From: an uncultured Candidatus Micrarchaeota archaeon
Lineage (GTDB): Archaea > Micrarchaeota > Micrarchaeia > Burarchaeales > Fermentimicrarchaeaceae
DNA: 64,000 bases
Direction of reading: 5' to 3'
NCBI GenBank assembly: GCA_903884505.1
Contig: CAISET010000030.1
Span: 29,701 to 93,700 of the forward strand
The notes beneath the pieces were generated by a model, which was not told the DNA's origin, searched no databases, and was given only the letters and a program-made list of their open reading frames with translations. Made by a program: the position numbers and the translations under genes. How positions within the stretch are numbered: position 1 is the first letter of the stretch; the number at the start of each line of letters is the position of its first letter. Shown in pieces: positions 1,633-59,930 of this stretch.

Positions 1633-1669
1633 AAGCTACTCCGTCAATCATGACCTTTCGGTTCATCCT

Positions 1670-1991
1670 GGGACGGTGCGATCATCGCCGGCTAATACTC
1701 TGATTCGCAACTTTAAAAACAAGCCGGAAGCCGTGGAGGTTCAGGAACCAAGGATGTCCGACCGAGGAGCGAAGCGACGACCGAGGACACCATTGGTTCT
1801 GATGGGACGGTGCGATCATCGCCGGCTAATACTCTGATTCGCAACTTTAAAAACAAGCCGGAAGCCGTGGAGGTTCAGGAACCAAGGACGTCTGCGGGAG
1901 GAGCCCGCGACAAGCTTCGCCCCGTGGGGCGAAGGTGTCCCTTTGCGCTGAAGCGCAAAGAGGACGACCAAAGACACCATTGGTTCTGATG
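1670..1991 (+). repeat. Tandem duplication of an ~88-bp unit. Each unit carries a TTTAAAAA promoter-like box and is followed by a hairpin-module cassette closed by GAACCAAGG...CCATTGGTTC.
   Basis: Unit copies sit at ~1670-1758 and ~1804-1892 and are near identical. Cassette 1 is ~1745-1803 and cassette 2 is ~1878-1991. Cassette 2 contains the palindromes cttcgccccgtggggcgaag and ctttgcgctgaagcgcaaag. Both end with gacaccattggttctgatg. Confidence 0.7.
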
Positions 1992-18300: not shown

Positions 18301-19612
18301 TGATGAGGCCGGTCTCATTCCCGAGGCGCGCTTGGATGCTTTGAAGGGAAAGCTCGCGGACGCCCGCGGCCTGCTCGACAGCCAGAAATGTATGGAGGCG
18401 ATAGCGGAACTGAAGGGGCTCAGTGCGGACGCGCAGAAAGCAGCCAAAGACTCGCAAATTCAGGAGACTGCGAGGGCAGGTTACTACGATGAATTGGCGC
18501 AGTTTAAGAAGGAGAAGGCGGCGCTCGGGAATCTGCACGATGGGCTCTTCTCCGCGGGCTTGGACAGCGAGGCACGCAAAGTACAAACTGCGCTCGATGC
18601 TGCGGGCGAATCCGAGGATGAGGCGGCAGGGCTTGCGGACGATTTGAATTTTGGCTCCGCAAAGGCGAAAATTTCCGACGCGCGCAAGTCGCTCCATGTC
18701 GACCTTTCGGGCCCGCTCAACAACAGGGTGGAGTCGCTTTCCAAGGAGGCTGACCTGCTGAATAAGCGGGGCCATGCCCTTTCGCTCCTGGACAATGAGG
18801 CAAACCTCAGCGATTTCCAGGTGGAACTCGCGGGAATCCGCTCGTCCATCTCCGATGCGGACTATTCTTCGGCAGCAACCGGCATCGCGGGACTGAACCG
18901 CTCGCTTTCGGCAAAGGAAGGCGAAACGGACGCGGGCTTCGGCCGGCTTGTCCCGGAGTTCGAAGGCTATGCGCGCGAAGTCTCCGAATTGAAGATAGTA
19001 TTCGGGGCGAACTTGGTGGAATTCTCAAAATCTTCGAAAAACGAGACCATCCTGGGGCAGGCGAGAAACGATTTGGCCGAGCTCGGCAGGCTCGATTCCC
19101 TGCTCTCAAACTTCTCGAGCTCCCCGGAGAAGCCGAAGTTCCTAGAGGCGAACGCAGAGAAGCTCGCAGGGATAAGCGCGGAGATCGCCACGCTGAACGG
19201 CACGAGCGCCAGCCTCGCCCAGGCAACGCAGGCCTACGCCAAGCTCGCGAACAGCTCCTTCTCGGAGGCCAGCCTGAAGCTCGAGCAGGCGCGGAAAATA
19301 GTCCCTGCAAGCGGGCAATACGCGGATAGGCTGCAGAACCTCACCTCAATCCTCAGCGATGCCGAGTCCGCACTCACTGCAAACAATTACGCGGATGCGG
19401 CAGTCCTTTCGGAGAAGGTAAGGGCGGGGGCGGAGCTGCTGCTTTCCGCAGCCTCGCAGGTCGAGCAGAAGGAGGCGGGCGCCGGCTTTTCGTTCCAGCC
19501 GGTCTATCTCCTTCTTCCGCTCCTCTTCTTCCTCGCGCTCGGCTACGTCTTCCTGAAGAAGAGGCCCGAGAAACCGCAAGAGGCCAAGCCAATCCAGCGC
19601 CTAGAATTCTAA
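15389..19612 (+). CDS. Giant alpha-helical, coiled-coil-rich surface protein with signal peptide and C-terminal TM anchor
   Basis: Probable start 'MSTSVNSAKWFLLAALLLAGMACAAG'. C-terminus 'FSFQPVYLLLPLLFFLALGYVFLKKRPEK'. AT-rich TATA region upstream contains the palindrome gaggtggttgcaccacctcag. Confidence 0.65.
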   Translation: MSTSVNSAKWFLLAALLLAGMACAAGNSDIPESYNRFWEGPNTGLFPCITNLPLLNLEKTDVMDAPAIARLELPAGFSAVREKMQNASEKIKAAKEGSVRFLGISFLIFEVGEKVRLYADGNPYPMLASTTFCGMSEESADIWIITEPAMYWKCHELWQANEQACKAMGDSLDALQAAAYASNDARDAAASHLETLGRMGADYGNYSGSARGVYSDSKEALEADPIIAFNGSREITLRYDDQAPRFAAAYVSAYDVKTAFENGSAQFERPDSYAAAIDLMAGRDENLVTGWAAVYWNIDSAISGMESEWNGSERAADAEYSDADSAVAALEEDGYSKITADLISNFSEAATGPIHGSFNAAPPDERVANARAMLQGANANITEARRLSNAEYEEDYLARAIETSQRAHSSITSAKSMAEEAKAEVEEIISAADGLYGLKSSEVRSAIDSFSTETPGSARLKANAETDYREAVGLAATARAGTSGKHLAGLAAALGKLESAKLWLSDENVSIAIRRDAARDELARLNATLNKAEHDGIGVTSERDWLNNAMQGRDSGTAEDMENFKEKAELAEEEVYAKAAAQFGYLDWQVSALDSTISAIRSYRSILGSAAELEAKFREFDELKRNYASGGTLVPEKALGHYLEIADKLDAISQEVESNKAKMIQEMMEKSARYDVAWEGEPILDEEMSALVSVRLANELPFGTNSSLSVSIPGDFPSGLSVVSKDAAIFSVDATGTKITAYFTSVSAGSAYSISLKGSGAEPARSVGRQQGNITSLHEQELVGSETLEFEALRDLDRLAIPMEIPEGTGRLSAEMENGRVAEVVNSDGMALVSAERVRKGRGSVTLAYHIPNPYLVTEGDAEVRKIDNLTARITYNVTVSSRAMDLSDVPVLIFVQNVSGEEGVSVRGLDGASLRNFEQQPSQGGVSVSWSIRSLGKGESATYEVSYAISDPGEYAEWFYSQDALLINSLDEAGLIPEARLDALKGKLADARGLLDSQKCMEAIAELKGLSADAQKAAKDSQIQETARAGYYDELAQFKKEKAALGNLHDGLFSAGLDSEARKVQTALDAAGESEDEAAGLADDLNFGSAKAKISDARKSLHVDLSGPLNNRVESLSKEADLLNKRGHALSLLDNEANLSDFQVELAGIRSSISDADYSSAATGIAGLNRSLSAKEGETDAGFGRLVPEFEGYAREVSELKIVFGANLVEFSKSSKNETILGQARNDLAELGRLDSLLSNFSSSPEKPKFLEANAEKLAGISAEIATLNGTSASLAQATQAYAKLANSSFSEASLKLEQARKIVPASGQYADRLQNLTSILSDAESALTANNYADAAVLSEKVRAGAELLLSAASQVEQKEAGAGFSFQPVYLLLPLLFFLALGYVFLKKRPEKPQEAKPIQRLEF

Positions 19613-19662
19613 CAAGAGCATTCGCATCCCGCAAAGAATTCGCGGGCAGCGCATTCGCGAGC

Positions 19663-19832
19663 TCAGCAGGAAAACTCGCATAACCTTTCTTTGGTGTCGC
19701 CCTTCGGGACGAATTCGCCTTCGGGCGAAATGTCCGCGTCCGAGACGCGGACGCTCCTCGCCATCCAGCAGGGGCTCGTCGCTCGACATCCTAAGAAACG
19801 TTAACGAAAGAATTCAGCAGGAAAACTCGCAT
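19663..19832. mobile_element. Small hairpin-rich element (G) flanked by the 19-bp direct repeat TCAGCAGGAAAACTCGCAT, which duplicates the 3' end of the Cas4-like gene
   Basis: Direct repeats at 19663-19681 and 19814-19832; both encode 'CEFSC*' on the minus strand. Internal hairpins tcgccttcgggcga and gtccgcgtccgagacgcggac. Confidence 0.55.
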
Positions 19833-20494
19833 CCTTCCCTGAATTCACAGACAAGGCATTTCGCAGGCTCCCCGCACGCGAGCTCCCTCCGCTCGAATCT
19901 TCCCTCAAGTATTCCCGCAAACCTTTCAAGCCTGGAAGCCACAAACCCCGCGTCGAACGGCTTGGGCTCTCCTTTTCCAAGTGGATGCCTTCCCAGCAAA
20001 TCCCGCTCGATTATCCGGTAGTAGATATCGAAGCCGCGCAGGACTCCCTCCCCGAGTTCCCTTCCCCTCACCCTCATAATCCCGTTCGCCAGCCCGTTGC
20101 AGTAAGCGGACAGCTGGCATTCGTATTTCCCCGAGAACAGCCCGCCAGCCCTCGATGTGAATTTCTCATCGCAGACAACAACCGACCTTCCGAATTTCAG
20201 CAGCTTGTCGAGCCTTCCGGAGAAGGTGAGGCCGCCAAACGCAAATCTCACGCTCACCGCCTCATTCGGGAACTCGAGCGCGCTTCCCTCGTCCTGCAGC
20301 CGGCGCAGCAGTTCATCAACGCTGACAGCCTCGTATTCCTTCTCCGCATCCTCCTCCGCGGAGATGGCATGCTGCCTAGTGCCAATTGCCACGCAGGGGC
20401 GGAAGTGCGGCCTCCTTTCCTCAAGAAAATGATAGACGGGCTTGAGGCCGCAGAACTCCACGTCCGCGAATTTGGAGATAGGGACGGCTCTCAT
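19814..20494 (-). CDS. Cas4-like / RecB-family PD-(D/E)xK nuclease with Fe-S Cys cluster (DUF83-like), standalone
   Basis: N-terminal Cys ('FCGLKP'), 'GRLDKLL', 'VVVCDEKF', QxxxY motif ('QLSAY'), C-terminal 'CGEPAKCLVCEFREGC'. Confidence 0.65.
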   Translation of the reverse strand: MRAVPISKFADVEFCGLKPVYHFLEERRPHFRPCVAIGTRQHAISAEEDAEKEYEAVSVDELLRRLQDEGSALEFPNEAVSVRFAFGGLTFSGRLDKLLKFGRSVVVCDEKFTSRAGGLFSGKYECQLSAYCNGLANGIMRVRGRELGEGVLRGFDIYYRIIERDLLGRHPLGKGEPKPFDAGFVASRLERFAGILEGRFERRELACGEPAKCLVCEFREGCEFSC

Positions 20495-20627: not shown

Positions 20628-20780
20628 CTCACCTCGGAACCCCGGTTGGCGCTGCGCTCGCTTGCGCGACCACGCAACACCTTCGGTGTTGCGCAAACGC
20701 ACCTTCGCTTGCGCCATATCCAGTCGCCTCCGGCGACTGCCTGTTGCGCGTTGCGCAACATCCTCGGTTCCTGAACCTCC
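20628..20780. repeat. Hairpin-module MITE-like element (copy E)
   Basis: GGAACCCCGGTTGG...CCTCGGTTCC termini. Modules gcgcaacaccttcggtgttgcgc and gtcgcctccggcgac. Ends ggttcctgaacctcc, as copy F does. Confidence 0.7.
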
Positions 20781-20829
20781 GTGAGCTGGTGCTGGACTGC
20801 TTTTAAAGAAGGGGAAGCGCACGTGGTTT

Positions 20830-21080
20830 CCAGTAAGAACCAATGGTTGGCATCCTCGCTGGCGCTCGTTGCCATATCCGGTCGCCTCCGGCGATTGATT
20901 TCGCCTTGCGGCGAAAGCTGTCGCTTTGCCGCGGGCAAAGCGCCATTGAGTCGCCTTCCGGCGACAGCTCAAATCGCCTGCGGCGATAACTGCGCAACTC
21001 ACGTTGCGCATCGCCAACTTCGTTGGCGACTGCCCGTTGCCTCGCGCTGCTCGGCAACATCCTTGGTTCCTTAACCTCCA
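20830..21080. repeat. Hairpin-module MITE-like element (copy F, longest; about seven tandem hairpin modules)
   Basis: GAACCAATGGTTGG...CCTTGGTTCCTTAACCTCC termini. 20975-21072 is the reverse complement of copy C. Modules gtcgccttccggcgac, gctttgccgcgggcaaagc, tgcgcaactcacgttgcgca and tcgccaacttcgttggcga. Confidence 0.75.
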
Positions 21081-21087
21081 CGCAAAA

Positions 21088-21597
21088 TCAGGGCTCTGCG
21101 CTGAACTCGTCCGCCTCGGTCAAATCAACGACTTCCCCAGCGCTCTGCAAGCCTTTCCCAACATAGACGAGCGAGGATGAGAACACGATGCGGTAAACGC
21201 CGTTGAACTCCTCAATCTCGCTCTTCATCATCCTCAAATATTTGTGTAGGGTCTGCGGGGAAATCTTAGTCTCCTTCTGTATCTCGTTGAAGGTCTTGGC
21301 GCGGGACTTGAGGCAGTTCCTCACCATCTGCTTCATGTCCTCGTCAGAAACAATATACTCCTCGGTCGCGAACTGCAGCTTCTCCTGCACGGACTCTATC
21401 CTCTTCGTTATCTCGTCCCTGCTCAGCACATCGCAACTTTTCAGCTCGCGCAGCTCCCTGAGGATGTGGTGCGCGCTCTCCCTCTGCGCGCCATCGAGCC
21501 GCTTAACATGCGCGGAAAGCTCCTCCAGCTTCCCGGAGACGCCGTCATTCCCGTTATTTTCCTTTCTCGCGCCGAACAGAATGTCCAATAAACCCAT
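21088..21597 (-). CDS. Hypothetical protein with C-terminal winged-helix-like region
   Basis: 169 aa; 'KTFNEIQKETKISPQTLHKYLRMMK' HTH-like segment. Confidence 0.4.
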   Translation of the reverse strand: MGLLDILFGARKENNGNDGVSGKLEELSAHVKRLDGAQRESAHHILRELRELKSCDVLSRDEITKRIESVQEKLQFATEEYIVSDEDMKQMVRNCLKSRAKTFNEIQKETKISPQTLHKYLRMMKSEIEEFNGVYRIVFSSSLVYVGKGLQSAGEVVDLTEADEFSAEP

Positions 21598-21861
21598 AAT
21601 AAAGTCGCCTAGGGCGCATATTAGATGCCGAAAATATTTAAAGAGTGCGGTAATTCGGTTTCGCAGCCTGTCAGCCGGCGGCTTCCCCGAAGCCCCTTCG
21701 CAAAAAGCAGGCGCTCGCTTCCGCTATTCGTCCGAAGTGGCGCCATCTCACTTTAAAAAGGGTTCAAACAAAACCACTGTCCCCAAAACATCAAGTATCT
21801 GCGCCTGGTCCGCGCGGACGCCGGAAAATTCTTGGGGAAAAGGGAAGCAATCGGAGGGGTG

Positions 21862-22077
21862 ATGGCGATGTTCGAGTTGCCGATTCTAGAAGTTGAGAGG
21901 TTCATCAGGAATGCAGGGGCGCAGCGCGTCACGGAGGCCGCTGGGAAGAAGCTCACGAGGCTGCTTGAATGCCGCGCAGAGAAGATAATAGAGAATGCGG
22001 CGATGATTTCGAGGTATGCCGGCAGGAAGACAATTACAAGGGAAGACATCATCCTCGCGCTTGAATTCGAGAATTAG
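21862..22077 (+). CDS. Archaeal histone (HMf family). The 3' end lies in a 25-bp direct repeat.
   Basis: 'MAMFELPILEVERFIRNAGAQRVTEAAGKKLTRLLE...AGRKTITREDIILA'. GGAGG RBS. Ends with an atypical 'LEFEN*'. Confidence 0.85.
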   Translation: MAMFELPILEVERFIRNAGAQRVTEAAGKKLTRLLECRAEKIIENAAMISRYAGRKTITREDIILALEFEN

Positions 22078-23469
22078 GATTCAACTTGATTTGCGGAACA
22101 GTTTTATTCTTCCTCCACCAAAATCCATGCATGCCAACGACCGTGGCCCCAAACCAAACTAAGACTAAAACCGGCAGCGAAGCGGCTCTGGAGAATAGGG
22201 CGAAAGGGCTTCTCAATCGCTTTGGAGATGCGATGGCAGAACTTCGTGGGCCTGAGTTTTACAGTTCAGCCCATTGGCTGTTCAAACTCCATGATGAAGA
22301 CCCCGCCCTCTTCAATCTTGTCTGGTACCGCTACACGGAGAAGATGGGACGCGTCGAGCCGACCAAGACGCTCACCGTTCCCCAGCAGCGCGTGGACCTC
22401 GAACGGGCATGCCCTCCAACAGAAAGAGAAAAGATGAAATCCGAATGCGATGCTTTAGGCGAAGCGCTGACGCAGAGGATTCCGAGCCGCCGCTTCGCCT
22501 CCATAATCTTCTCCCTCCGGTCTCATTTTGTGATTGGAGATTTATTTATCCAACATCATCCTTTGTGGGAAGATAATGACTCAAAGCTTGCTGCGAAGGT
22601 CATGCGTCTTCTAGCCAGCACCGATAATTTAGCGCATCGTGACCTAATCATGCGCGCGCTGTCAAACGGCGCCGAATTCAAGGGGGATGTGCTCAACGAG
22701 GATATGCTTGCGGGGCGGATTCATAGGATTGTGAATGGGAACAAGGAACTGCGGCTGTTCATAATCTGGGGCGGAGTAAAATGGAGCGAGGAGGGGACCG
22801 CGGACCTTTGGGATGAAAAGGCGGTGGAAACGCTGAAGGCAATCCAGGGGCGCGTCCGCGCCGTCTACCCGAACACCTCGGTGGAGCTTATTATCTGCGA
22901 CGTCCATGCCGCCGACTTTGCGGGCAAGCCGCTGGAACACGTCTACCGCTACGCCGGAAACCAGGGCTCAGCCGCGGATGCGAAGACGCTCCACGCCCTC
23001 GCAAAAAAGCACGGGCTTAAGATGGTGCCGCTTTCGGAGATATATGACTATTTCAAAGGAAGAGGGATGCAGGGGGAGCTTGCGAGAGCTGAGCGCAAGG
23101 AATATCTGAAGTCGCGCGAGATACTGAAAAGAGACGTGGCGTATGCGCGTCTCCTCGACGATGCGGCAGAGAAGCATTCAGATCTTGTCAGGGAAGGAAT
23201 CAAGAAGAAGGAGCAGGCGGCATTGGACTACTTGGCAAGGAGGCGCTTCGAGGCGAAGCTCTTCCAGATGTGGTGTCCGGATGCAGTTTTCTTGAGCTTT
23301 GCCGGTGATACGGAGAGAGAGAAATACATCATCAGCTCGCCAATTCCCGTAATTTGTATCTATCCATACAGGAAGAGCACGAAGAGCGACCTGCCCTGGT
23401 TCAGGGACATGCGCACAGAGGACCGAGAGTCGTTCCCACCTCAAGAATTCGAGAATTAGGATTCAACTT
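22063..23469. mobile_element. 1.38-kb insertion between convergent histone genes, bounded by a 25-bp direct repeat GAATTCGAGAATTAGGATTCAACTT
   Basis: Direct-repeat copies at 22063-22087 (histone 3' end) and 23445-23469 (3' end of the 457-aa ORF). Both encode 'EFEN*'. Confidence 0.6.
22086..23459 (+). CDS. Hypothetical 457-aa protein (cargo of the direct-repeat-flanked insertion); alternative start at 22131
   Basis: Long ORF with coding-like composition and no recognised catalytic motif. The C-terminus 'QEFEN*' is encoded by the direct repeat. Confidence 0.5.
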   Translation: MICGTVLFFLHQNPCMPTTVAPNQTKTKTGSEAALENRAKGLLNRFGDAMAELRGPEFYSSAHWLFKLHDEDPALFNLVWYRYTEKMGRVEPTKTLTVPQQRVDLERACPPTEREKMKSECDALGEALTQRIPSRRFASIIFSLRSHFVIGDLFIQHHPLWEDNDSKLAAKVMRLLASTDNLAHRDLIMRALSNGAEFKGDVLNEDMLAGRIHRIVNGNKELRLFIIWGGVKWSEEGTADLWDEKAVETLKAIQGRVRAVYPNTSVELIICDVHAADFAGKPLEHVYRYAGNQGSAADAKTLHALAKKHGLKMVPLSEIYDYFKGRGMQGELARAERKEYLKSREILKRDVAYARLLDDAAEKHSDLVREGIKKKEQAALDYLARRRFEAKLFQMWCPDAVFLSFAGDTEREKYIISSPIPVICIYPYRKSTKSDLPWFRDMRTEDRESFPPQEFEN

Positions 23470-23479
23470 ATTTCTTTCT

Positions 23480-23686
23480 TTAGTCTGCCAGCCGGATATC
23501 TTCTTCCGTTACTGTCTTTCTCCCGGCGTGTTTCGCCAGTTTCGCGGCCTTTGCCGCGATGCGGCCCGCCTGCTCCTCAAGAACGTCGCGGAGAGCCGAG
23601 GCTGCCTGCGGAGAGACGCGCGTCGCGCCGGATTTCCTGATGAGCCGCTCGACGGCGGCTATCGGAAGTTCTGCCATAAGAAGCAC
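23480..23686 (-). CDS. Archaeal histone (HMf family), second copy
   Basis: 'MLLMAELPIAAVERLIRKSGATRVSPQAASALRDVLEE...AGRKTVTEEDIRLAD'. Confidence 0.85.
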   Translation of the reverse strand: MLLMAELPIAAVERLIRKSGATRVSPQAASALRDVLEEQAGRIAAKAAKLAKHAGRKTVTEEDIRLAD

Positions 23687-23696
23687 CTAACAGAAT

Positions 23697-23777
23697 CTAC
23701 TCGAACTCCTCCTCTTCCTCCTCTTCGTACTCCTCCTCATCCCAGTCTTCCTCTTCCTCCTCGTCATCGTCAAACAT
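23697..23777 (-). CDS. Ultra-acidic 26-aa micro-protein (MFDDDEEEEEDWDEEEYEEEEEEEFE), 10 nt upstream of histone 2
   Basis: ATG preceded by a gaggtga RBS at appropriate spacing. Uninterrupted GAG/GAA run. Not in the ORF track (<60 aa). Confidence 0.35.
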   Translation of the reverse strand: MFDDDEEEEEDWDEEEYEEEEEEEFE

Positions 23778-23847
23778 TTAGGGCTCACCTCGTTGAAAGC
23801 GCGTTTCTTATTGCCCATGTGGTTAATAAGGCTATCGCCGCCCCCTT

Positions 23848-24465
23848 TCAGCTGACGCGGCTCTTCTGCGGCTTTTTCGGGGTTTCCGGGCTTTCCGTTA
23901 TCTTCCGGAGGGCTTTCTCACTAATCTTCTGATAACTATTTAGGCGGAAGAGCAAGTTCTCCAGCGTCTGCTTCGGGACGAGCCACTCGTTCTCGTGCTC
24001 CCTGCGCCAAGCGGCAATCTCTCCGCCTGCCTCTTTGTGGATAATGCTTGACACTTCCACCGCGCCGTTCATCTTCACCATGGTCCAGGCCTTCTTGTTG
24101 AGCACCTGCCAGAGCTTGAGTCCGGGCTTTTCCCCAAGAATGAGATTGGAATCGCCAATTGGCGCAACCGCATAAACTTCAACCCCGCGGAACTTGGGTG
24201 CGACATACATCCAGCCGATTGCGCCGGCCTTCAGGTCAGCGATTGAGAAGCCAGCAGGCTTATCGATTCCATAGGCCGCGACAACCGCGAGCTTTAGCCC
24301 GCCCTTTATCTGCCTCTCCATCTCTTCGAGCGTTTCGCCTCCCTTCACCGCCGCCTTCCATTCCTTGTAAAGGCTCCGGAAATCATCCCAGTCAAAGTCG
24401 TCGCCGACGTCGCCGCAGAGTATGCGGACGCGGACCTTTTTGGCCTCATTTTCTGCCATGCCCAT
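23848..24465 (-). CDS. Hypothetical protein
   Basis: 205-aa ORF with no recognised motif. Confidence 0.4.
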   Translation of the reverse strand: MGMAENEAKKVRVRILCGDVGDDFDWDDFRSLYKEWKAAVKGGETLEEMERQIKGGLKLAVVAAYGIDKPAGFSIADLKAGAIGWMYVAPKFRGVEVYAVAPIGDSNLILGEKPGLKLWQVLNKKAWTMVKMNGAVEVSSIIHKEAGGEIAAWRREHENEWLVPKQTLENLLFRLNSYQKISEKALRKITESPETPKKPQKSRVS

Positions 24466-24699
24466 ATTTTCACAAGAGCAGTATAAAAGCTATTAAACTT
24501 GAACCGAGCGGTAAAAAGGGGCTGATTTGGAATGACTGGGCGTGGCGCTAAAACGAGAGAAATGAAACAGAAACCGGAACTAACAGATGCGGCGAAGCCG
24601 CCTGCGCCGCAACAGGCTGGCGATACCCACCGACAACCACCGTGGCACAACAATGCCTACTGGCAGGAGCAGTGGAATCAGGGCTTGGGCGGGAAGGAG

Positions 24700-26304
24700 A
24701 TGGTGGAGCTCTTCCAAACGCTCCTGAGGATTGATACGACCACTGTGCCGGATGATGCCACTTCATTGCCCGTGCCAAAGGAGAACTACGAGGCATTCGT
24801 AAATGCCGTTACGAGATTCGCAGAAAAAGAGGGATTCCAAGCCGACGTCTTTTACGCCCTGGGAGGAAGAACAAAACACGGAGCCCGGATGGGGAACATC
24901 CTGATTGCGTTCGATTGCGGTGCTAAAGAGACAATCGCCATCATAGACCACTGGGACAAAATGCCGTATGATGCCAACCACTGGAACAAATTGACCCCTC
25001 CCCTCGGGGGCGTGATTGTCGCGGAGAGGCTGTACGGCAGGGGGGCTTCCGACAACATCGGCGGTTTCATGGCCGCGTTCCAGGCCCTGAGGGAGTTGAA
25101 AAAAAGTGGAAACTCCAAGGTGAACATAGACCTCTGGCTGACCTGGGGCGAAGAGGCGCAGTGCGAAAGCGGCCTGCATTACGTTGCGAACAACAAGCTG
25201 AGCGGGTTCGACGGCTATTCCGGGATACTTATGCCCGATGTGGCGCCGGACCCGATAATGGTGGGCTCGAGCGGGGTGTACTGGAATACCGCGACATGCA
25301 AGGGAACAATATCAAGCATCGCGGGATTCACTGAAGCCCTGGCTTCCTACCACGCCGAGGCCTTGAAGGATGTATCGAGATTTGTGCCTCCGGACGGCTC
25401 GCCTTACAAGCACGTGCCCGGGCAGTTCTCGGTCGTGAAGATTGAATTCAAGCCGGAACTGAAATCCGGCAGTAAGTTCCAGGTGACCAGAATCGCCACC
25501 GGCCTGGTTGAAGACGAAACGGGCAAAGTGGCCGGAACAAAACCGTTCAAGGACATTCCGCACAACACAATCCCGGGAAAGTGCGGCATCTTCTTCATGC
25601 TGGAGGCGGACAGGAAAAAGGAATTCAATGGCTTGTTCGGCAAGCTCAACGATGCAAACGGAGGGAAAGCAAAACTGTCATTCGACCCGGCCGAAGGCGG
25701 CAAAGTGACCGGGGTAATCGAGGTGAACGGCAAGCCAACCCATTCCAGCAGGCCTTATCTCGGCGAGAACGCGCTCCTGAACGCAATCCCCTACTTGAAG
25801 GGTCTCGCCGCATATGGGGAGACCGAGGGAGAGGCAACGCTCGGCTTCGACATGCGGACAATCCCCGAACGCAGGGGAGATGGATACTGGGAGGCGGTGC
25901 GGAATTTTGAAAGCTGGTTCAATGCAGAGGTAAGGCCCAGATTCAAAGGATGCGAGGTAAATACGCACGTGAATGCGAAGGGCGCAAAGGAGCCGGTAGT
26001 CGAGCTGCAAGGCTCGTTCTCGGACCCCGACTCCGTTCTCGCGCAGCTGATTGCCAGGAAGACGGGCAGGCCGTTCGGCGCGGAGCTCGGCGGAACGGAC
26101 GCATCCGTCATCGAGGGGGCCGGAATAAAAACCCCGCGCGGCAAGCCGGTTCCGATAGTGCTCTGCGGTTGCGAGGTGGACGAGGATAACGGCCACGGCG
26201 ACAACGAAAGCGTATCCCTCACCGGCCTGGTGGACGTGAAGGACACAATCGCATATGTGGCGGAGAACTGGGAAAACGCCAAAACAGGAAAACGCGGGCG
26301 TTAG
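24700..26304 (+). CDS. M20-family metallopeptidase (dipeptidase / ArgE-DapE-like)
   Basis: 'YGRGASDNIGG' metal-ligand motif and dimerisation-domain architecture. GGGAAGGAG RBS before ATG 24700. The upstream ORF extension 24532-24699 is low-complexity. Confidence 0.65.
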   Translation: MVELFQTLLRIDTTTVPDDATSLPVPKENYEAFVNAVTRFAEKEGFQADVFYALGGRTKHGARMGNILIAFDCGAKETIAIIDHWDKMPYDANHWNKLTPPLGGVIVAERLYGRGASDNIGGFMAAFQALRELKKSGNSKVNIDLWLTWGEEAQCESGLHYVANNKLSGFDGYSGILMPDVAPDPIMVGSSGVYWNTATCKGTISSIAGFTEALASYHAEALKDVSRFVPPDGSPYKHVPGQFSVVKIEFKPELKSGSKFQVTRIATGLVEDETGKVAGTKPFKDIPHNTIPGKCGIFFMLEADRKKEFNGLFGKLNDANGGKAKLSFDPAEGGKVTGVIEVNGKPTHSSRPYLGENALLNAIPYLKGLAAYGETEGEATLGFDMRTIPERRGDGYWEAVRNFESWFNAEVRPRFKGCEVNTHVNAKGAKEPVVELQGSFSDPDSVLAQLIARKTGRPFGAELGGTDASVIEGAGIKTPRGKPVPIVLCGCEVDEDNGHGDNESVSLTGLVDVKDTIAYVAENWENAKTGKRGR

Positions 26305-28343: not shown

Positions 28344-29486
28344 ATGGCTAAATCGTATTCCGCATTAATAGTATTGTGCCTAGCTTGTCTCGTGTTCACA
28401 ACAGGTAGCGCATTCGGCAATGTAATCCAGATTGATCTTGGCGTGCCAGTGAATGGCTCGGTAAGCGCATCGCAACGTATCATCAATTATTCGTACCACG
28501 TACATGCCGGCGAGGAATACGAGTTCATATTCGAACCGCATCTTGCAGATGCCCGGATAATAACCGTTGGATATGCAACCGCTGCGTCCGCAGGTCACGA
28601 AAATAGAGGGCGCGTGACTGCAGAGCGGACAGGGTTGCAGTACTTCCAGATTGCATTCGAAGACCCATACTCTACGACGTATACGGTCACTGTAAACCAG
28701 ACCACCCACTATGGCTGCAGTACGCACACAACATGCGGAACGTGTGTTCAGGTATCGTCCTGCGGCTGGTCAAAATTTGAAGGATGCGTGCATAATAGCT
28801 CGGGCGAACTGGACTGGTTAGTTTTTTCAGCCTCACAATGCCCCACGTCAAGCCCGGTTGATTGCGCCAGTTCAGATGCGGCAGTACAAATCGAAGCCAA
28901 TTCCCTGACAAATGGTTTCCTTGGTCGGGACAATGTGCAGGCGTGCTACGGGTTTGCCACAATCGGCAGTGGGACGTATACCGTTATGCTTATCACAGAT
29001 GCACAAAACATCGCGCTCGCAGTTTACGACGCGGACGGCTATATAATCTCGGCCGGACCCGGAATAACCGGTTCCGTTTTCGGCGCTTCTGGCGGCAGCC
29101 ATTATTCAATTGCAGTATGGAAGAACAATTCCAATCCTGCGGCGTTCAACCTTTCAGTCGCGCAGGGGCTCAATGCGATATTCACGCCTACCCCTACACC
29201 TTCGCCAACCGCAACTCCGACACCAACTCCGACGCCGAACTCGACTCCTACCTCTGCGCCGACCGCAACTCCATCTCAAACGCCCTCACCTGTGCCATCT
29301 CCATCACCGACTCCCAGCAGCACTGCGACTCCGCTGGTGATAGCAACTCCTGGCGGGAATGCGCGCGATTCACATAACGGAAGCGTGCTGCTGGTTGCCG
29401 GTGGGGCTTTGCTGGCCGTGGTACTCGTTGCACTGGCGGCCATTCTAGCCTATTTCCTGCTTAGGAGGCGTCGAAAGCACCTGTGA
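28344..29486 (+). CDS. Secreted protein with PT-rich linker and C-terminal TM anchor plus basic tail (archaeosortase-signal-like)
   Basis: Signal '[25 protein letters not shown]', '[23 protein letters not shown]...', C-terminus '[32 protein letters not shown]'. Confidence 0.65.
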
Positions 29487-29546
29487 GCTTGCGTTTAGGC
29501 AGGCGCCCCTGGAAGGCCTATTAAGCCTTATCGACAAAAGCAATTC

Positions 29547-30038
29547 ATGATTCTTCCGAAGCATGAGCTCCAGGAGCGGAAGGCAGTCTCTGGCTTCCTC
29601 TCGGACTCCCAGTTCCAGCCCGCGGGCGTCGATTTGACGCTCCGCGAGGCCTTTTCCTTTTCTTCAGAAGGCAGCGTAGATTTCGACAACTCGGAGAGGA
29701 AGTTAGCGGAGACAAAACCGCTGGCATTCGATGAAAAAGGCTGGCTCCATCTTCCGAAGGGCGCATACAAAGTCGTATATAATGAAATAGTTTCCATCCC
29801 TTCCGACTGCGCGGGCCTTGCATACCCGCGCTCAACTCTTCTGAGGTGCGGCGCGTTCCTCCATTGCGCGGTCTGGGACCCGGGCTACAAGGGGAGGAGC
29901 GAGAGTTTGCTTGTGGTGGAGAATGAAAAGGGCATAAGGCTGAAGAAAAATGCAAAGTTGGTCCAGCTAATCCTCATCAAGCTGACCTGCGATGCGAAGG
30001 AAACCTACAAGGGCAAATACCACAACGAGAACCTCTGA
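29547..30038 (+). CDS. dCTP deaminase / dUTPase-family protein
   Basis: 'AGVDLTL' and 'VWDPGYKGRSE' motifs. Confidence 0.65.
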   Translation: MILPKHELQERKAVSGFLSDSQFQPAGVDLTLREAFSFSSEGSVDFDNSERKLAETKPLAFDEKGWLHLPKGAYKVVYNEIVSIPSDCAGLAYPRSTLLRCGAFLHCAVWDPGYKGRSESLLVVENEKGIRLKKNAKLVQLILIKLTCDAKETYKGKYHNENL

Positions 30039-30088
30039 GCGCAATCTGATTTTAAAACCATCGCCCCAAACGTACTTCGGGTGTCACC

Positions 30089-31033
30089 ATGAAGTATGTC
30101 CTCGTCCTGCTAACTCTTGCCGTTTTCCTGCTGCCTGCCTTCGCGATCATGCCGAGCCCAACGCCGGTTGATTCGGACCACGATGGCATTCCTGACAGCA
30201 CGGACAATTGCGTGCTCGTCCCCAACCCCACACAGGCGGACAGGGACCTCGACGGGATAGGCGATGCCTGCGACACGTGCATACGCGTCTCCAATCCCGG
30301 CCAGGAGGACCGCGACGGCGACGGCGTTGGCGACGTTTGCGACAATTGCGTGGATATCTCCAACGCAAACCAGAATGACGGCGATGGCGATAACATTGGT
30401 GATTTGTGCGACAACTGCATTCTCGTTCCCAACCCGGACCAGCTGGACAGCAACGGAAACGGGATAGGCGATGCCTGCGAGGCCGCGGCGCCAACCCCAA
30501 CGCCTACGCCAACTGCAATCCCGACACCTACTCCCACTGCAACGCCAACCCCAACACCAACCCCAGTTGCCTGCGGCAACTACTGCGAGTACGGCGTCCT
30601 TTATAGCGGCGGCTACTACGATGCTGGACAGATGAAATGCGTTTATCAGAACAGGTATGGCTGCCTCACCATCTGCAATGCGAACGGTACGGCTTGCGCG
30701 ACAGCCACATCAACTCCGGCACCAACGCCCACTCCTACGTCCGCGCCAAGCCCGACTTCCACTTCGGAGCCGACTGCAACGCCAACCCCGACATCTGCTC
30801 CAACTCAGACGCCGGCGCCAGAGCCAACTGCAACTCCAACTCCGGTTCCAACGCCTACTCCGGCACCCACGCCCGTTCCAACTCCTACGCCAACCCCCAC
30901 ACCATACAGTGCTACGCCAACGGCAACGCCAGCCGCATCCCCCACCCCGCAGCCCAGCGCATGCCCGCTATTCTTCGTGCTGCCGCTCTTCGGGAGTGCG
31001 GCTGCGCTGTTTGCGCTGAGAAGAATGGAATAG
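30089..31033 (+). CDS. Secreted Ca-binding thrombospondin type-3-repeat protein with PT-rich linkers and hydrophobic C-terminus
   Basis: Repeated 'D.D.DG..D..DNC' units (DSDHDGIPDSTDNC; DRDLDGIGDACDTC; DRDGDGVGDVCDNC; DGDGDNIGDLCDNC; DSNGNGIGDACE). C-terminus 'CPLFFVLPLFGSAAALFALRRME'. Confidence 0.7.
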   Translation: MKYVLVLLTLAVFLLPAFAIMPSPTPVDSDHDGIPDSTDNCVLVPNPTQADRDLDGIGDACDTCIRVSNPGQEDRDGDGVGDVCDNCVDISNANQNDGDGDNIGDLCDNCILVPNPDQLDSNGNGIGDACEAAAPTPTPTPTAIPTPTPTATPTPTPTPVACGNYCEYGVLYSGGYYDAGQMKCVYQNRYGCLTICNANGTACATATSTPAPTPTPTSAPSPTSTSEPTATPTPTSAPTQTPAPEPTATPTPVPTPTPAPTPVPTPTPTPTPYSATPTATPAASPTPQPSACPLFFVLPLFGSAAALFALRRME

Positions 31034-56877: not shown

Positions 56878-56968
56878 GATTGTGACACACTGCCACGCTT
56901 GGACGCGTGGCTGGTGTGCTGCTGCCAGTAAGCGTGGCAGTGTGCGTCCGGCGGTGATTTCTGTGGTT
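56878..56968 (+). repeat. Upstream copy of the duplicated rtcB 5' region (GGATTGTGA...CGTCCGGCGGTGATTTCTGTGGTTGAACTGAA), interrupted by a 60-bp perfect-arm palindrome
   Basis: Matches 58466-58510. Palindrome cacactgccacgctt...aagcgtggcagtgtg at 56888-56947. Confidence 0.6.
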
Positions 56969-57068
56969 GAACTGAAGACTTTGCCCACAGAAAGGCGGTT
57001 TTGAAGCAAACATTTATAATATACAAATTGTTTATTATTGCGTGTTTTCTGAAAGTGTGACGCAGAGG

Positions 57069-57644
57069 ATGTTGAAGGCTGTCGAGGGCTCCCCATCAGG
57101 GATTGCCCGGCTCGACGTCTTGGAGAGCCTGGGCTTGTGCAGCCCTGCCACCCTGAAGATAACATTGAGCAGGCTCGGAAGGAGCGGGAGGATTATCCGG
57201 CTGAAGCGGGGTGTGTACTCTGCAAGCCCCATCCGTGACGCATTCGCCTCCGCGCAGGCGGTTTTCAACGGGTACGTCGGCTTTTCGGCCGCCCTCTACC
57301 TGCATAGGCTCATAAGCGAGGTGCCCTTCACTGTGGCCGTGGTCACGGGGAGGAAGTCAGGCGTGAAGCGCATCGGGAACTACGAATTCAGGGCAGTTGC
57401 CCTGGGCGGCAAGGCAGTTGGCTTTGAACGGAACGGGCCATACGTGGTATCGACCCGCGCGAAGACGTTGTTTGACTGCCTTTACCTGCCTAAATATTCG
57501 GTCGAGCAGGAGAAGCTTGTCGCGGCATTTCGGGAAGCGCGCCTTGGGGCGGAAGAGCGGCGCGAGTTCACGGGCTATGTGAAAAAGTTCGCCTCGGGGA
57601 AGACCCGCGCAAAGATGCTGAAGGCAGCAAAGCTGTTGTGGTGA
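57069..57644 (+). CDS. abiEi: AbiEi-like antitoxin / transcriptional regulator (type IV toxin-antitoxin)
   Basis: N-terminal wHTH, C-terminal AbiEi_4-like region. Alternative GTG start at 57042. AT-rich promoter catttataatatac upstream. Confidence 0.55.
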   Translation: MLKAVEGSPSGIARLDVLESLGLCSPATLKITLSRLGRSGRIIRLKRGVYSASPIRDAFASAQAVFNGYVGFSAALYLHRLISEVPFTVAVVTGRKSGVKRIGNYEFRAVALGGKAVGFERNGPYVVSTRAKTLFDCLYLPKYSVEQEKLVAAFREARLGAEERREFTGYVKKFASGKTRAKMLKAAKLLW

Positions 57645-57648
57645 TGGA

Positions 57649-58434
57649 ATGGTTGAAATCAATCTGGAGGCTTGCAGGGTGTTGGCAATACAGCACGGGC
57701 TCCCGCTGCAATTCCTTGTGAAGGAGTTCTGCGTGTTCGATGTGCTGGGCCAGGTTGTGATGTTCACGGCTCCGTCGAAACGCCTCATCTTCAAGGGTGG
57801 CACCGCGCTGAACAAAGTCTACCTGGGCGGCATGCAGCGGTTCTCCGAGGACCTGGACTTCGATTTTGATACTGAGAATATAAGCGAAGCCCGTGCGGAA
57901 GCGCAGCGAATCTCCGAGCACATCGAAGGGTATCGCATCTCGGATTTCAGAACGGTCAGGCGAACGGTGCAGTTCGATTGCGAGTATGACAGCCCGCTGG
58001 GCGGAAAGGACCACGTGCGGATTGATGTGGCTGCGAAGAGAATAATTACGGAAAAGCCTCCGCTGGTAAAGCCAGCCGTTTCTGCCTACACGCAGCGTTT
58101 CGTAACCGGATTTTACGTGTATGCTCTCGAAGACTTGGTTGCGAGGAAGCTTCACGCGCTCCAGACCCGGGGCGAAGGGAAAGACATCTATGATGCTTCC
58201 AATGCCCTTCCGCTGTGCGGCAAGATGGAGCACGCGCTCCAGAAGATGCTGGAATCGGAAAAGCGGCCGGACACTCCGACTGAGTTCATTAGAACGACCA
58301 TCAAGAAGGTTCAAGCGGCAGACCCTAAGAGGCTCCGCAACCTGGCAAACCCTTTCATCCCTGCGGGCAACCGCCCGAAGGACTGGCTCGAACTGAAAAA
58401 TGACCTCCTGCTTAGGCTCGAAAAGCTGGTATAG
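57649..58434 (+). CDS. abiEii: AbiEii-like nucleotidyltransferase toxin (DUF1814)
   Basis: 'FKGGTALNKVYL...QRFSEDLDFDF' NTase signature. 4-nt spacing from abiEi. Confidence 0.65.
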   Translation: MVEINLEACRVLAIQHGLPLQFLVKEFCVFDVLGQVVMFTAPSKRLIFKGGTALNKVYLGGMQRFSEDLDFDFDTENISEARAEAQRISEHIEGYRISDFRTVRRTVQFDCEYDSPLGGKDHVRIDVAAKRIITEKPPLVKPAVSAYTQRFVTGFYVYALEDLVARKLHALQTRGEGKDIYDASNALPLCGKMEHALQKMLESEKRPDTPTEFIRTTIKKVQAADPKRLRNLANPFIPAGNRPKDWLELKNDLLLRLEKLV

Positions 58435-58487
58435 GTTATTAATCCTCACTTCCAAACCTCTTTCGCCTGGATTGTGAACGTCCGGCG

Positions 58488-59930
58488 GTGATTTCTGTGG
58501 TTGAACTGAAAGCTCTTGGGCCTGCGAAGTGGGAGATTCCCCACGAGGGCAAGATTCCTGTCTGGCTTTACGCGAACAAGCAGCTAGCGGAGAACATGGG
58601 GAGGGACCGGACGCTCTGGCAGGCGCAGAACGTGGCGAAGCTGCCGGGAATCATAAAGGCAAGCGAAGTGATGCCGGACGGGCACGAGGGGTATGGCTTT
58701 CCGATTGGAGGGGTAGCCGCCTTTGACATGGAAGAGGGAATCATCTCGCCCGGCGGAGTCGGTTATGACATCAACTGCGGAGTTAGGATGATTCTGACGA
58801 ATCTGACTGCCGCAGATGTAAAACCGAAAATCGGAGAGCTGATGAGCAAGCTTTTCCAGAATATTCCTTCCGGGGTCGGAAGCAAGGGGAGAATCAGGCT
58901 TACAAGGGAGGAGCTGGCTGCGCCGCTCATGGAAGGCGCGCAGTGGGCAATTGAGAAAGGGTACGGATGGAAGGAGGATTCGGAGAGAATTGAAGAGAAC
59001 GGAAGGATGGAGGGCGCGGACCCGGCCAAATGCTCGGATATGGCGATGAAAAGGGGAGCGCCGCAGTTCGGAACTCTGGGAGCGGGAAACCACTTCCTTG
59101 AAGTGCAGAAGGTGACCGAGATTCTGGACGAGAAGGTGGCGAAGGCGTTCGGAATCACGGCGAAGGACCAAGTCGTGGTGATGCTGCATTGCGGAAGCAG
59201 GGGATTCGGGCACCAGGTCTGCGACGACTATATCCGCGTGATGCTGCAGGCTTCCGAGAAGTATGGCATCCCGCTTCCTGACAAGGAGCTATGCTGCGCG
59301 CCTATCAATTCCAAGGAGGCGCAAGATTATGTGGGCGCCATGTACGCGGCAGTGAACTATGCCTTCTGCAACAGGCAGGTCATGACGCACTGGATTAGGG
59401 AGACGTTCCAGGACGTGTTCAAGAAGGCGCCGGATGCGCTCGGGATGCATGTTGTTTACGACGTCTGCCACAATATTGCGAAATTCGAGGAGCACAAGGT
59501 TGATGGCGGAGTGAAGAAGGTCTGCGTGCACAGGAAGGGCGCGACAAGGGCTTTTGCAGCGGGAAGGAAGGAGATTCCGCAAATCTACCGCAGCGTTGGG
59601 CAGCCGGTCATCATCCCAGGAAGCATGGGGACTGCAAGCTATCTTCTCGTGGGAACCGAGGGAGCGATGGTGGAAAGCTGGGGAAGCACGTGCCACGGCG
59701 CGGGAAGGACGATGAGCAGGCATGAGGCAATCCGGAGATACCCTGCGCAGATGGTTGAGGGCGAACTGGAGAAGAAGGGAATCGTTCTCAGGGCGACTGG
59801 GAAGGAGATTATTTCCGAGGAGGCGAGCGGCGCATACAAGGACGTTTCCGCAGTCGTCTCCAGCGTGCAGGAGGCAGGCCTTTCAAGGATAGTCGCAAGG
59901 GTCGAGCCGATGGGAGTCGCGAAGGGATAA
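58488..59930 (+). CDS. rtcB: RNA-splicing ligase RtcB
   Basis: 480 aa with 'GYDINCGVRM', 'GAGNHFLEVQ', 'HCGSRGFGHQV', 'STCHGAGR'. Confidence 0.9.
   Translation: MISVVELKALGPAKWEIPHEGKIPVWLYANKQLAENMGRDRTLWQAQNVAKLPGIIKASEVMPDGHEGYGFPIGGVAAFDMEEGIISPGGVGYDINCGVRMILTNLTAADVKPKIGELMSKLFQNIPSGVGSKGRIRLTREELAAPLMEGAQWAIEKGYGWKEDSERIEENGRMEGADPAKCSDMAMKRGAPQFGTLGAGNHFLEVQKVTEILDEKVAKAFGITAKDQVVVMLHCGSRGFGHQVCDDYIRVMLQASEKYGIPLPDKELCCAPINSKEAQDYVGAMYAAVNYAFCNRQVMTHWIRETFQDVFKKAPDALGMHVVYDVCHNIAKFEEHKVDGGVKKVCVHRKGATRAFAAGRKEIPQIYRSVGQPVIIPGSMGTASYLLVGTEGAMVESWGSTCHGAGRTMSRHEAIRRYPAQMVEGELEKKGIVLRATGKEIISEEASGAYKDVSAVVSSVQEAGLSRIVARVEPMGVAKG

What the first reader, a model, noticed from the sequence alone, without database searches (positions are those of the whole stretch)
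22063..23469. 1.38-kb cargo (a 457-aa unknown protein) inserted at the 3' end of a histone gene, bounded by a 25-bp direct repeat that encodes 'EFEN*' for both genes
GAATTCGAGAATTAGGATTCAACTT occurs at 22063-22087 and 23445-23469. The first copy forms the last codons of histone 1, giving an atypical C-terminus 'ALEFEN' (histone 2 ends 'EDIRLAD'). The second copy forms the end of the 457-aa ORF. The insert sits exactly between two convergent histone genes. No integrase or transposase is recognisable in the cargo. The 457-aa protein has no motif I can assign. Either it is an integrated element whose recombinase lies elsewhere, or the cargo protein is itself a novel recombinase or defence gene.
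Basis: partly seen in the sequence, partly recalled or inferred. Interest (0 to 1): 0.7.

Follow-up and report, generated by a model that had tools for sequence, protein, structure and literature searches.

The report
Single-gene insertion between two archaeal histone genes
A 1.36-kb piece of DNA carrying one enzyme-like gene sits between two histone genes in some strains of an uncultured Micrarchaeota archaeon and is absent in others, and it arrived with a 25-base duplication of the target; this is a clean case of recent gene gain, but the gene is not a recombinase.

Summary
The 25-mer occurs exactly twice (22063-22087 and 23445-23469), against none expected by chance.

Two contigs from near-identical strains (L009, L013) carry the empty site. 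They have one copy of the 25-mer, and the two histone stop codons lie 20 bp apart. The 1,357-bp segment 22088-23444 is therefore a true strain-variable insertion with a 25-bp target duplication.

'EFEN*' is the native end of histone 1, because it is present in the empty allele. The cargo ORF has no stop codon inside the insert, so it is the cargo that borrows EFEN* from the duplicated target.

Composition and codon usage match the host. No integrase, transposase or terminal inverted repeats were found.

The same window holds two more inserts flanked by long duplications of gene ends (19 bp and 37 bp). Relatives carry other genes, or none, next to the histones.

Most likely mechanism (inferred): sequence-independent insertion at a staggered break, with fill-in. 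Integration by a recombinase encoded elsewhere is the main rival.

The parts
21868..22077 (+). Histone 1 gene (69 aa, ends ...ILALEFEN*). It is intact in both the occupied and the empty allele.
   Evidence: PF00808 E 1.1e-11. The same protein sits next to the empty site in L013, and a 99% identical one in L009. Orthologues end EFA* or EFSS*.
22063..22087 (+). Direct repeat copy 1 (25 bp): the last 4 codons and stop of histone 1, plus 10 nt downstream.
22088..23444 (+). Inserted segment (1,357 bp), absent from the empty alleles L009 and L013. No terminal inverted repeats.
   Evidence: L009 and L013 equal window 21651-22087 joined to 23470-24249. Test for inverted repeats at the ends: p=0.6.
22102..22108 (+). 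TTTTATT, a putative archaeal TATA box for the cargo gene, about 24 nt upstream of the ATG. The insert therefore carries its own promoter (inferred).
   Evidence: The stretch from the TATA box to ATGCC is conserved with the upstream region of homologue P0002 in L015. There is no similarity upstream of the TATA box.
22131..23459 (+). Cargo gene, 442 aa: an N-terminal helical region plus a C-terminal PvcA/IsnA-like domain (about aa 185-426). The last 5 codons (EFEN*) lie in repeat copy 2.
   Evidence: Residues 431-442 have pLDDT below 50.
23445..23469 (+). Direct repeat copy 2 (25 bp). It provides the cargo ORF with its last 4 codons and its stop codon.
23470..23479 (.). T-rich 10-nt remainder of the native 20-nt spacer between the two histone stop codons.
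   Evidence: Empty site L009 428-447 reads GATTCAACTTATTTCTTTCT.
23480..23677 (-). Histone 2 gene (65 aa, ends ...EEDIRLAD*), convergent with histone 1.
   Evidence: PF00808 E 2e-16. Many Micrarchaeota orthologues.

Best explanation
This is a recent, strain-variable gain of a one-gene cassette in the chromosome of an uncultured Micrarchaeota (DPANN) archaeon. A 1,357-bp DNA segment went into the 3' end region of histone 1, between two convergent histone genes. The segment holds a promoter and an ORF for a PvcA/IsnA-like enzyme, with no stop codon inside the segment.

Shown: the insertion duplicated 25 bp of the target (the last codons and stop of histone 1 plus 10 nt of spacer). As a result the left copy keeps histone 1 intact, and the right copy happens to give the cargo ORF four extra codons and a stop.

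Inferred: the duplication arose from a staggered break, with cuts 25 nt apart on the two strands. The segment was joined into this break and the single-stranded gaps were filled in. That is a sequence-independent, transposition-like or repair-mediated capture, carried out by factors not encoded in the insert.

In this very gene-dense genome such events survive only where the duplication regenerates the gene end. That would explain why the repeats 'encode' gene termini.

The cargo came from the same or a closely related genome. It is probably a small-molecule or aminoacyl-utilising enzyme, and it plays no part in its own insertion.
For: - Empty site: two contigs from other assemblies have one 25-mer and a 20-bp spacer. 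They are 100% identical to the window over 780 bp on the right. Over the 437 bp on the left they differ at 9 (L013) or 10 (L009) positions, 9 of which lie in the first 80 bp.
- Occupied allele: seen in five ENA assemblies (by gene calls only; no DNA was available for them) and in L014, which is 100% identical at the left junction (L014).
- Outgroups have no cargo: the histone stop codons are 0, 2 or 15 bp apart.
- The family domain ends at the PWF motif. Most members stop within about 17 residues after it, so the EFEN tail is dispensable.
- The cargo's own promoter is conserved with that of homologue P0002, which sits in a different locus with no flanking repeats.
- No inverted repeats at the ends, no integrase or transposase, and host-like GC and codon usage (rank 11 of 33 genes).
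- Two further inserts in the same window are flanked by duplications of gene ends, with different lengths and unrelated sequences. One has a 19-bp exact repeat (the PDDEXK gene's last codons and stop) around a 132-bp hairpin-rich insert. The other has a 37-bp repeat (35/37, the 5' end of rtcB) around an AbiEi/AbiEii pair. Three unrelated target sequences and three repeat lengths argue for a sequence-independent duplicating mechanism rather than one site-specific recombinase.
Against: - 25 bp (and 19 or 37 bp) is longer than the target duplications of most characterised transposases, and no enzyme is identified.
- The insert has no transposon-like ends.
- A perfect repeat that reconstitutes the 3' end of a conserved gene is also the classic signature of att-site integration.
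- The spot next to the histones carries different genes in related lineages, which could point to a targeted site.
- The direction of the event (insertion, versus precise deletion between the repeats in the empty strains) cannot be proven from sequence alone.
- The three repeat-flanked inserts may not share one mechanism.
Confidence: 0.5

Rival explanations
1. Site-specific integration of a small (1,382-bp) circular cassette, by a tyrosine or serine recombinase encoded elsewhere. The cassette's attachment site shares a 25-bp core with the 3' end of histone 1. This would resemble integrase-less, att-flanked elements (CIME-like), or elements that target tRNA genes and carry a replacement 3' end.
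For: The repeats are perfect, and the single copy in the empty site is identical to them. The repeat spans the end of a conserved gene and leaves it intact. The cargo ORF ends inside the repeat, so it would be the same in a circular form. The neighbourhood of the histone pair varies among lineages. There is a weak dyad, GCTTGAATTC-N8-GGATTCAACT with 7/10 matching arms, read directly.
Against: No recombinase in the insert or in the window. The dyad is no better than chance by my rough estimate (about 0.5 expected). The insert has only 43 nt of non-coding sequence and no arm-type sites. The 25-mer is absent from JGI metagenome contigs and from IMG/VR. The cargo family has only one close relative, at an unrelated locus without repeats. 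The two other repeat-flanked inserts have unrelated repeat sequences.
Confidence: 0.25
2. Replication template switching (MMBIR/FoSTeS-like). The nascent strand left the histone spacer, copied the cargo gene from another place in the genome, and re-annealed 25 nt behind the point where it left. This would give an insertion plus a 25-bp duplication with no dedicated enzyme.
For: Host-like composition suggests a donor in the same or a related genome. The insert is an arbitrary fragment: it starts 15 nt before the TATA box and ends without a stop codon. Repeat lengths vary among the three inserts.
Against: No clear microhomology at either junction. No second copy of the cargo within the 64-kb window. 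The rest of the genome was not available.
Confidence: 0.12
3. The occupied allele is older. The 25-mer, including EFEN*, was originally the cargo gene's own 3' end. The empty alleles arose by precise deletion between the repeats, leaving EFEN as a scar on histone 1.
For: Histone 1 in the four more distant lineages examined ends EFA* or EFSS*, not EFEN*. The cargo ORF ends neatly in the repeat. 25-bp repeats can mediate precise deletion (general knowledge).
Against: This needs an incoming fragment with 25 bp of terminal redundancy and a junction at the shared GAATTC, which is more steps. The tail after LALEF varies anyway among lineages (A, SS, EN). The nearest outgroup is only about 75-80% identical in DNA, so EFEN had ample time to arise independently. 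The empty alleles sit on a different SNP haplotype.
Confidence: 0.08
4. Assembly artefact: either a chimeric join, or a collapse at the 25-bp repeat.
For: All data are metagenome assemblies. The empty contigs are short (1,217 bp).
Against: The occupied arrangement recurs in six independent assemblies (five by gene calls, L014 by DNA), and the empty one in two. The contig names k141_... suggest a final k-mer of 141, much longer than 25 bp, so a 25-bp repeat should not cause a collapse. The empty contigs carry their own SNPs.
Confidence: 0.02

Closest known systems
att-flanked integrative elements without an integrase (CIME-like elements; remnants of tRNA-gene-targeting elements that carry a replacement gene end). 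Named from general knowledge.
   Same: Strain-variable segment bounded by perfect direct repeats. One repeat copy forms the intact 3' end of a conserved gene. The empty site has one copy.
   Different: Only 1.36 kb with a single gene, and no integrase anywhere in the 64 kb. No recombinase-type dyad and no arm sites. The target is a protein-coding (histone) gene end. There are no other copies or other cargo with the same core.
Transposable elements that make long, variable-length target duplications (e.g. IS1634 or IS1549 type). Recalled from memory, not checked here.
   Same: Long direct duplication of the target. The lengths differ between events in one genome (19, 25 and 37 bp here).
   Different: The histone insert has no inverted ends and no transposase, is single copy, and its cargo is an ordinary cellular-type gene with its promoter.
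IsnA/PvcA isonitrile synthases (Pfam DIT1_PvcA, PF05141). These enzymes join the amino nitrogen of Tyr or Trp to a carbon from ribulose-5-phosphate (PMC7949033 abstract).
   Different: Below the Pfam gathering score (21.4 vs 26.4 bits). Only 13-14% identity. An extra 180-aa helical N-terminal region. No PvcB/IsnB-type dioxygenase next to it. Activity unknown.
Flexible ('additive') genomic islands or gene-flux hotspots between conserved genes. Named from general knowledge.
   Same: Related lineages carry different genes, or none, at the same conserved landmark.
   Different: The landmark is a convergent histone gene pair rather than a tRNA gene. Each variant is a single gene.

Membership tests
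Site-specific integrative element (att-flanked) | Direct repeats at both ends, identical to a single copy at the empty site | tested here: met
   25/25 identical copies. One copy in L009 and in L013.
Site-specific integrative element (att-flanked) | Integrase or recombinase gene in the element or nearby | tested here: not met
   The insert holds one ORF with a PvcA-like fold. No integrase Pfam hit among about 45 ORFs of the window, from my scans and from the precomputed hits of the public assembly.
Site-specific integrative element (att-flanked) | Core site with inverted recombinase-binding arms around a short overlap region | tested here: inconclusive
   Only a 7/10 dyad with an 8-nt spacer, read by eye. 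By my rough estimate this is about what chance gives.
Site-specific integrative element (att-flanked) | Excised circular form | not testable with these tools
   This needs raw reads. None are available here.
IS / MITE / transposon | Terminal inverted repeats | tested here: not met
   Best local alignment of the two ends scores 10 against a shuffle mean of 9.9, p=0.6.
IS / MITE / transposon | Transposase gene, or multiple copies of the element | tested here: not met
   No transposase. The insert ends have no other copy in the window. The 25-mer is absent from JGI metagenome contigs and from IMG/VR.
Integron gene cassette | Promoterless ORF followed by an attC recombination site | tested here: not met
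   The ORF runs to the last base of the insert, so there is no room for an attC. The insert also carries its own TATA box.
IsnA/PvcA isonitrile synthase (PF05141 DIT1_PvcA) | Sequence match above the Pfam gathering score | tested here: not met
   21.4 bits against a cut-off of 26.4, E 2e-4. P0002 scores 19.1 bits.
IsnA/PvcA isonitrile synthase (PF05141 DIT1_PvcA) | PvcA-type fold | tested here: met
IsnA/PvcA isonitrile synthase (PF05141 DIT1_PvcA) | Adjacent Fe/2-oxoglutarate dioxygenase partner (PvcB/IsnB), and conserved substrate-binding residues | tested here: inconclusive
   No such neighbour at either locus, judged from gene lists and Pfam hits. Catalytic residues were not compared.
Known anti-phage defence proteins (PADLOC) | Match to a defence-system model | tested here: not met
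   No hit for P0001 or P0002 at E<=1.
Archaeal histone (PF00808) | Histone-fold domain of about 65-70 aa | tested here: met
   Both flanking genes match, at E 1e-11 and 2e-16.

The most novel reading that the evidence does not exclude
Micrarchaeota (and perhaps other gene-dense DPANN archaea) may have an undescribed, sequence-independent DNA insertion route. It would create long target duplications of variable length (about 19-37 bp). Because these duplications regenerate the ends of the genes that were hit, single-gene cassettes could be slotted into genomes with almost no intergenic space, without any recombinase on the cassette. Three such events (a structured 132-bp element, a PvcA-like enzyme gene, and an AbiE toxin-antitoxin pair) are visible in this one 64-kb window.
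Probability: 0.2. Interest if true: 0.7.

Novelty: new variant of a known kind. Interest (0 to 1): 0.45.

Why it matters
Both states of one event are available: a before-and-after pair for a very recent gene gain in a DPANN archaeon. These organisms have tiny, tightly packed genomes, and little is known about how they acquire genes.

The case shows how an insertion can land inside the last codons of an essential-looking chromatin gene without harming it, because the long target duplication rebuilds the gene end. It also shows how the incoming ORF can recruit a stop codon from that duplication.

If the long, variable duplications seen three times in this window reflect a common mechanism, that mechanism is not described. 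It could be tested directly by comparing strains.

The cargo also defines a rare, uncharacterised branch of the isonitrile-synthase / class-I aminoacyl-tRNA-synthetase-like fold in archaea.

Tried and rejected
- Cargo as recombinase or defence gene: rejected by fold and by PADLOC and NCBIfam.
- EFEN as an insertion-derived histone end: rejected by the empty alleles.
- Foreign origin by composition: no signal in GC, GC3 or codon usage.
- Terminal inverted repeats at the insert ends: none.
- Shared end motifs among the three repeat-flanked inserts: none.
- Repeats around the homologue P0002 in L015: none.
- Remnants of a second cargo domain or paralogues in the window: none.
- Rfam, tRNA, bacterial-type promoter and terminator scans: nothing relevant.
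- First structure model from a 2-sequence alignment: too poor to use, pLDDT 51.
- Genome-contig scan with the M20 peptidase: found nothing. Alignment A2 was too diverse for the search for related loci.
- Metagenome-contig scans with the 25-mer and with histone 1: gave nothing useful.
- AFDB50 fold library: unavailable.
- Literature searches for DPANN att-type elements and for PvcA-TyrRS-CDPS fold relations: nothing directly relevant.

Full report
**1. The observation**

The 25-mer GAATTCGAGAATTAGGATTCAACTT occurs at 22063-22087 and 23445-23469 and nowhere else in the window, even when 3 mismatches are allowed. None of 100 shuffles produced a match. The identity stops exactly at 25 bp.

Copy 1 ends histone 1 (21868-22077...ILALEFEN*). 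Copy 2 ends a long ORF. A second histone gene (23480-23677, minus strand...EEDIRLAD*) converges on them.

The ORF is best read from ATG 22131 (442 aa), as in public gene calls, rather than from TTG 22086.

**2. It is a true insertion/absence polymorphism**

The closest relatives of histone 1 were found in the protein collection and their contigs were fetched.

- L009 (ERZ27313100) and L013 (ERZ18627097) carry a 99% identical and an identical histone 1, respectively.
- In both contigs the sequence reads ...CTTGAATTCGAGAATTAGGATTCAACTTATTTCTTTCTTTAGTCTGCC.... That is one copy of the 25-mer, followed 10 nt later by the stop codon of histone 2.
- Both contigs equal window 21651-22087 joined to 23470-24249.
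- The right flank is 100% identical over 780 bp. The left flank differs at 9 (L013) or 10 (L009) positions, 9 of which lie in the first 80 bp.
- The empty allele therefore sits on its own haplotype.

The occupied arrangement recurs in five ENA assemblies (ERZ1426811, 12, 13, 34 and 43), as shown by gene calls only, since no DNA was available for them. It also recurs in L014, which is 100% identical to the window across the left junction (L014).

The contig names (k141_...) suggest an assembly k-mer of 141, far longer than 25 bp. Together with the independent assemblies, this rules out an assembly artefact.

**3. What is native and what came in**

EFEN* is present in the empty allele, so it is the native end of histone 1 in this species. 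In more distant lineages the tail after LALEF is A* (P0004, P0005, P0006) or SS* (L021). This tail therefore varies naturally.

The inserted segment is 22088-23444 (1,357 bp). It contains no stop codon for its ORF. The ORF reads on into repeat copy 2 and ends with the duplicated EFEN*. Only the histone frame gives a prompt stop there; I read the other two frames from the sequence and they run on into the antisense strand of histone 2.

**4. The organism and the neighbourhood**

The only close homologue of the cargo is P0002 (698 aa, 50% identity). It lies on contig CAIXRF010000107.1 of 'uncultured Candidatus Micrarchaeota archaeon isolate AlinenSediments_bin-2344', next to a ribonucleotide reductase gene, with no flanking repeats. 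The name given to the window organism rests on this relative; no named genome of the species itself was found. Histone 2 orthologues are also named Micrarchaeota.

The window itself is ordinary chromosome. It holds ribosomal proteins L7Ae, S28e and L24e, NDK, KARI, Dus, RtcB, a P-type ATPase and similar genes.

**5. The site is variable among relatives**

- In L003-L008 the two histone stop codons abut (GAATTCGCCTGA|TTAATC). The downstream genes are syntenic with the window, except that the M20 peptidase gene (24532-26304 in the window) is absent there.
- In L021 the stop codons are 2 bp apart. In L010 they are 15 bp apart.
- In bin-2344 a 499-aa type-IV-pilin-like gene lies between the histones, on the other strand.
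- L018, whose histone 2 is 94% identical to the window's, has a homologous pilin-like gene after histone 2 (39% identity, E 4e-36).
- L020, L022 and L019 have yet other genes after histone 2.
- For L018, L019, L020 and L022 the contigs end before a histone 1 could be seen. 'Between the histones' is shown only for the window and for bin-2344.

**6. The cargo protein**

Pfam gives only a sub-threshold hit to DIT1_PvcA: 21.4 bits against a cut-off of 26.4. P0002 hits the same profile region.

An exhaustive profile search found 37 matches at E <= 0.001. Apart from the query protein itself and a fragment of P0002, these are distant relatives. They share a domain of about 250 aa with the motifs WGGxKE, LFxDxHA, KHS, Y..R.FE and PWF. 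The domain ends a few residues after PWF, so the domain in P0001 is complete. The 18 residues after PWF, including EFEN, are an unstructured tail; residues 431-442 have pLDDT below 50.

With this alignment AlphaFold2 gave a confident model (pLDDT 85.9, pTM 0.82).

- Foldseek: the isonitrile synthases PIsnA (9dhm, 9dh4) and PvcA come first, at E 4e-5 to 1e-3.

IsnA-type enzymes join the amino nitrogen of Tyr or Trp to a carbon of ribulose-5-phosphate (PMC7949033). No partner dioxygenase is adjacent here. I therefore call the cargo a PvcA/IsnA-like enzyme of unknown reaction. It is not a recombinase, and it has no PADLOC or NCBIfam match.

**7. Anatomy of the insert**

- Homology between the P0001 and P0002 loci begins at a TATA-like TTTTAT(T/A) box about 24 nt before ATGCC. 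The sequences further upstream are unrelated.
- The insert therefore starts 15 nt upstream of its own promoter. It ends after the domain and a 13-residue tail.
- The insert has no terminal inverted repeats (p=0.6).
- GC is 0.543 against 0.569 for the window. GC3 is 0.65.
- Its codon-usage distance ranks 11th of 33 genes.
- The donor was therefore the same or a closely related genome.

**8. Two more events of the same shape in the window**

(a) An exact 19-bp repeat lies at 19663-19681 and 19814-19832. It is the last codons plus stop of a PD-(D/E)XK nuclease gene (19814-20494, minus strand). It brackets a 132-bp hairpin-rich segment with inverted ends (p<0.001), between two convergent genes. 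In bin-2344 the same two genes overlap by 4 bp.

(b) A 37-bp repeat (35/37 identical) lies at 56940-56976 and 58474-58510. It covers the start of rtcB. It brackets a 1,497-bp AbiEi/AbiEii pair; the AbiEii match has E 6e-24.

The three repeats are unrelated in sequence and differ in length.

**9. Mechanism**

Shown:
- The target was duplicated.
- The insert encodes no recombinase.
- The cargo has its own promoter.
- The histone gene is preserved.
- Both alleles circulate in nature.

Inferred, and favoured at about 0.5: sequence-independent insertion at a staggered break with fill-in, either transposition-like in trans or repair-mediated capture. This best accounts for three unrelated targets with three duplication lengths, and for the arbitrary boundaries of the insert.

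The main rival, at about 0.25, is att-type integration by a recombinase encoded elsewhere. The perfect repeat, the reconstituted gene end and the variable locus fit it. The lack of any integrase, dyad, arm sites or further copies argues against it.

Template switching (about 0.12) and a scenario in which the repeat came with the cargo and the empty alleles are deletions (about 0.08) remain open.

**10. Verdict**

This is a well-documented, recent single-gene gain with an unusually long target duplication, in a poorly known archaeal lineage. Its explanation of the histone end and its guess about the cargo do not.

Interest is moderate. It would rise if the long variable duplications prove to be a general insertion route in DPANN genomes.

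Noticed in passing
window 19663-19832: An exact 19-bp direct repeat (TCAGCAGGAAAACTCGCAT) duplicates the last codons and stop of the PD-(D/E)XK nuclease gene (19814-20494, minus strand). It brackets a 132-bp hairpin-rich segment (MFE about -57 kcal/mol) with imperfect inverted ends, between convergent genes. In the sister lineage the same two genes overlap by 4 bp. It has the same architecture as the histone insertion.
   Followed up: partly
window 56940-58510: A 37-bp direct repeat (35/37 identical) includes the start of rtcB (58488-59930). It brackets a 1,497-bp AbiEi/AbiEii toxin-antitoxin pair (57042-57644 and 57649-58434) that has an AT-rich promoter region. This is a third insert flanked by a duplicated gene end.
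   Followed up: partly
window 23697-23777 (minus strand); L003 2787-2867; L010 1111-1191: A conserved 26-aa extremely acidic micro-ORF (MFDDDEEEEEDWDEEEYEEEEEEEFE) lies immediately upstream of histone 2. It is kept in lineages whose DNA is only 73-79% identical across this region. It could be a small acidic partner of the histone or a histone-chaperone-like peptide.
   Followed up: partly
window, whole: GAATTC is the most over-represented 6-bp palindrome (42 observed against 11 expected), with 5 sites within 19604-19841. GGATCC and CGTACG are absent (0 observed against 19 expected). This suggests restriction-site avoidance for those two sites and none for GAATTC.
   Followed up: partly
L001 541-2049 (minus strand); L018 1047-1526; bin-2344 contig (no DNA held): In two related lineages a type-IV-pilin-like gene (N-terminus QSAMEFLMTYGWA..., with a Thr/Pro-rich linker and a repeat-rich C-terminal region) follows histone 2. 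In bin-2344 it lies between the two histone genes.
   Followed up: partly
L015 8001-10097 (P0002); P0012: Homologues of the cargo carry additional C-terminal sequence. P0002 has an extra 270-aa region with a similar strand and motif pattern. The 1,200-aa P0012 matches the profile in three stretches. The family seems to grow by tandem duplication of its domain.
   Followed up: no
window 1669-1991: A 102-nt repeat (95% identical, spacing 134) and a 29-nt repeat (93%, spacing 187) lie next to the dihydrouridine synthase gene. They were not examined.
   Followed up: no
window 20713-21079: Pairs of 26-27-nt repeats (92-93% identical, spacings 158 and 299) lie in the region upstream of the 169-aa gene (21088-21597). 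No tandem array was detected and there is no Rfam hit.
   Followed up: no
window 29193-30949: Thr/Pro-rich 12-nt periodic repeats, and four 69-nt repeats that look like they encode Asp-rich (DxDxDG-like) units, lie within the surface-protein-like ORFs 28344-29486 and 30089-31033.
   Followed up: no
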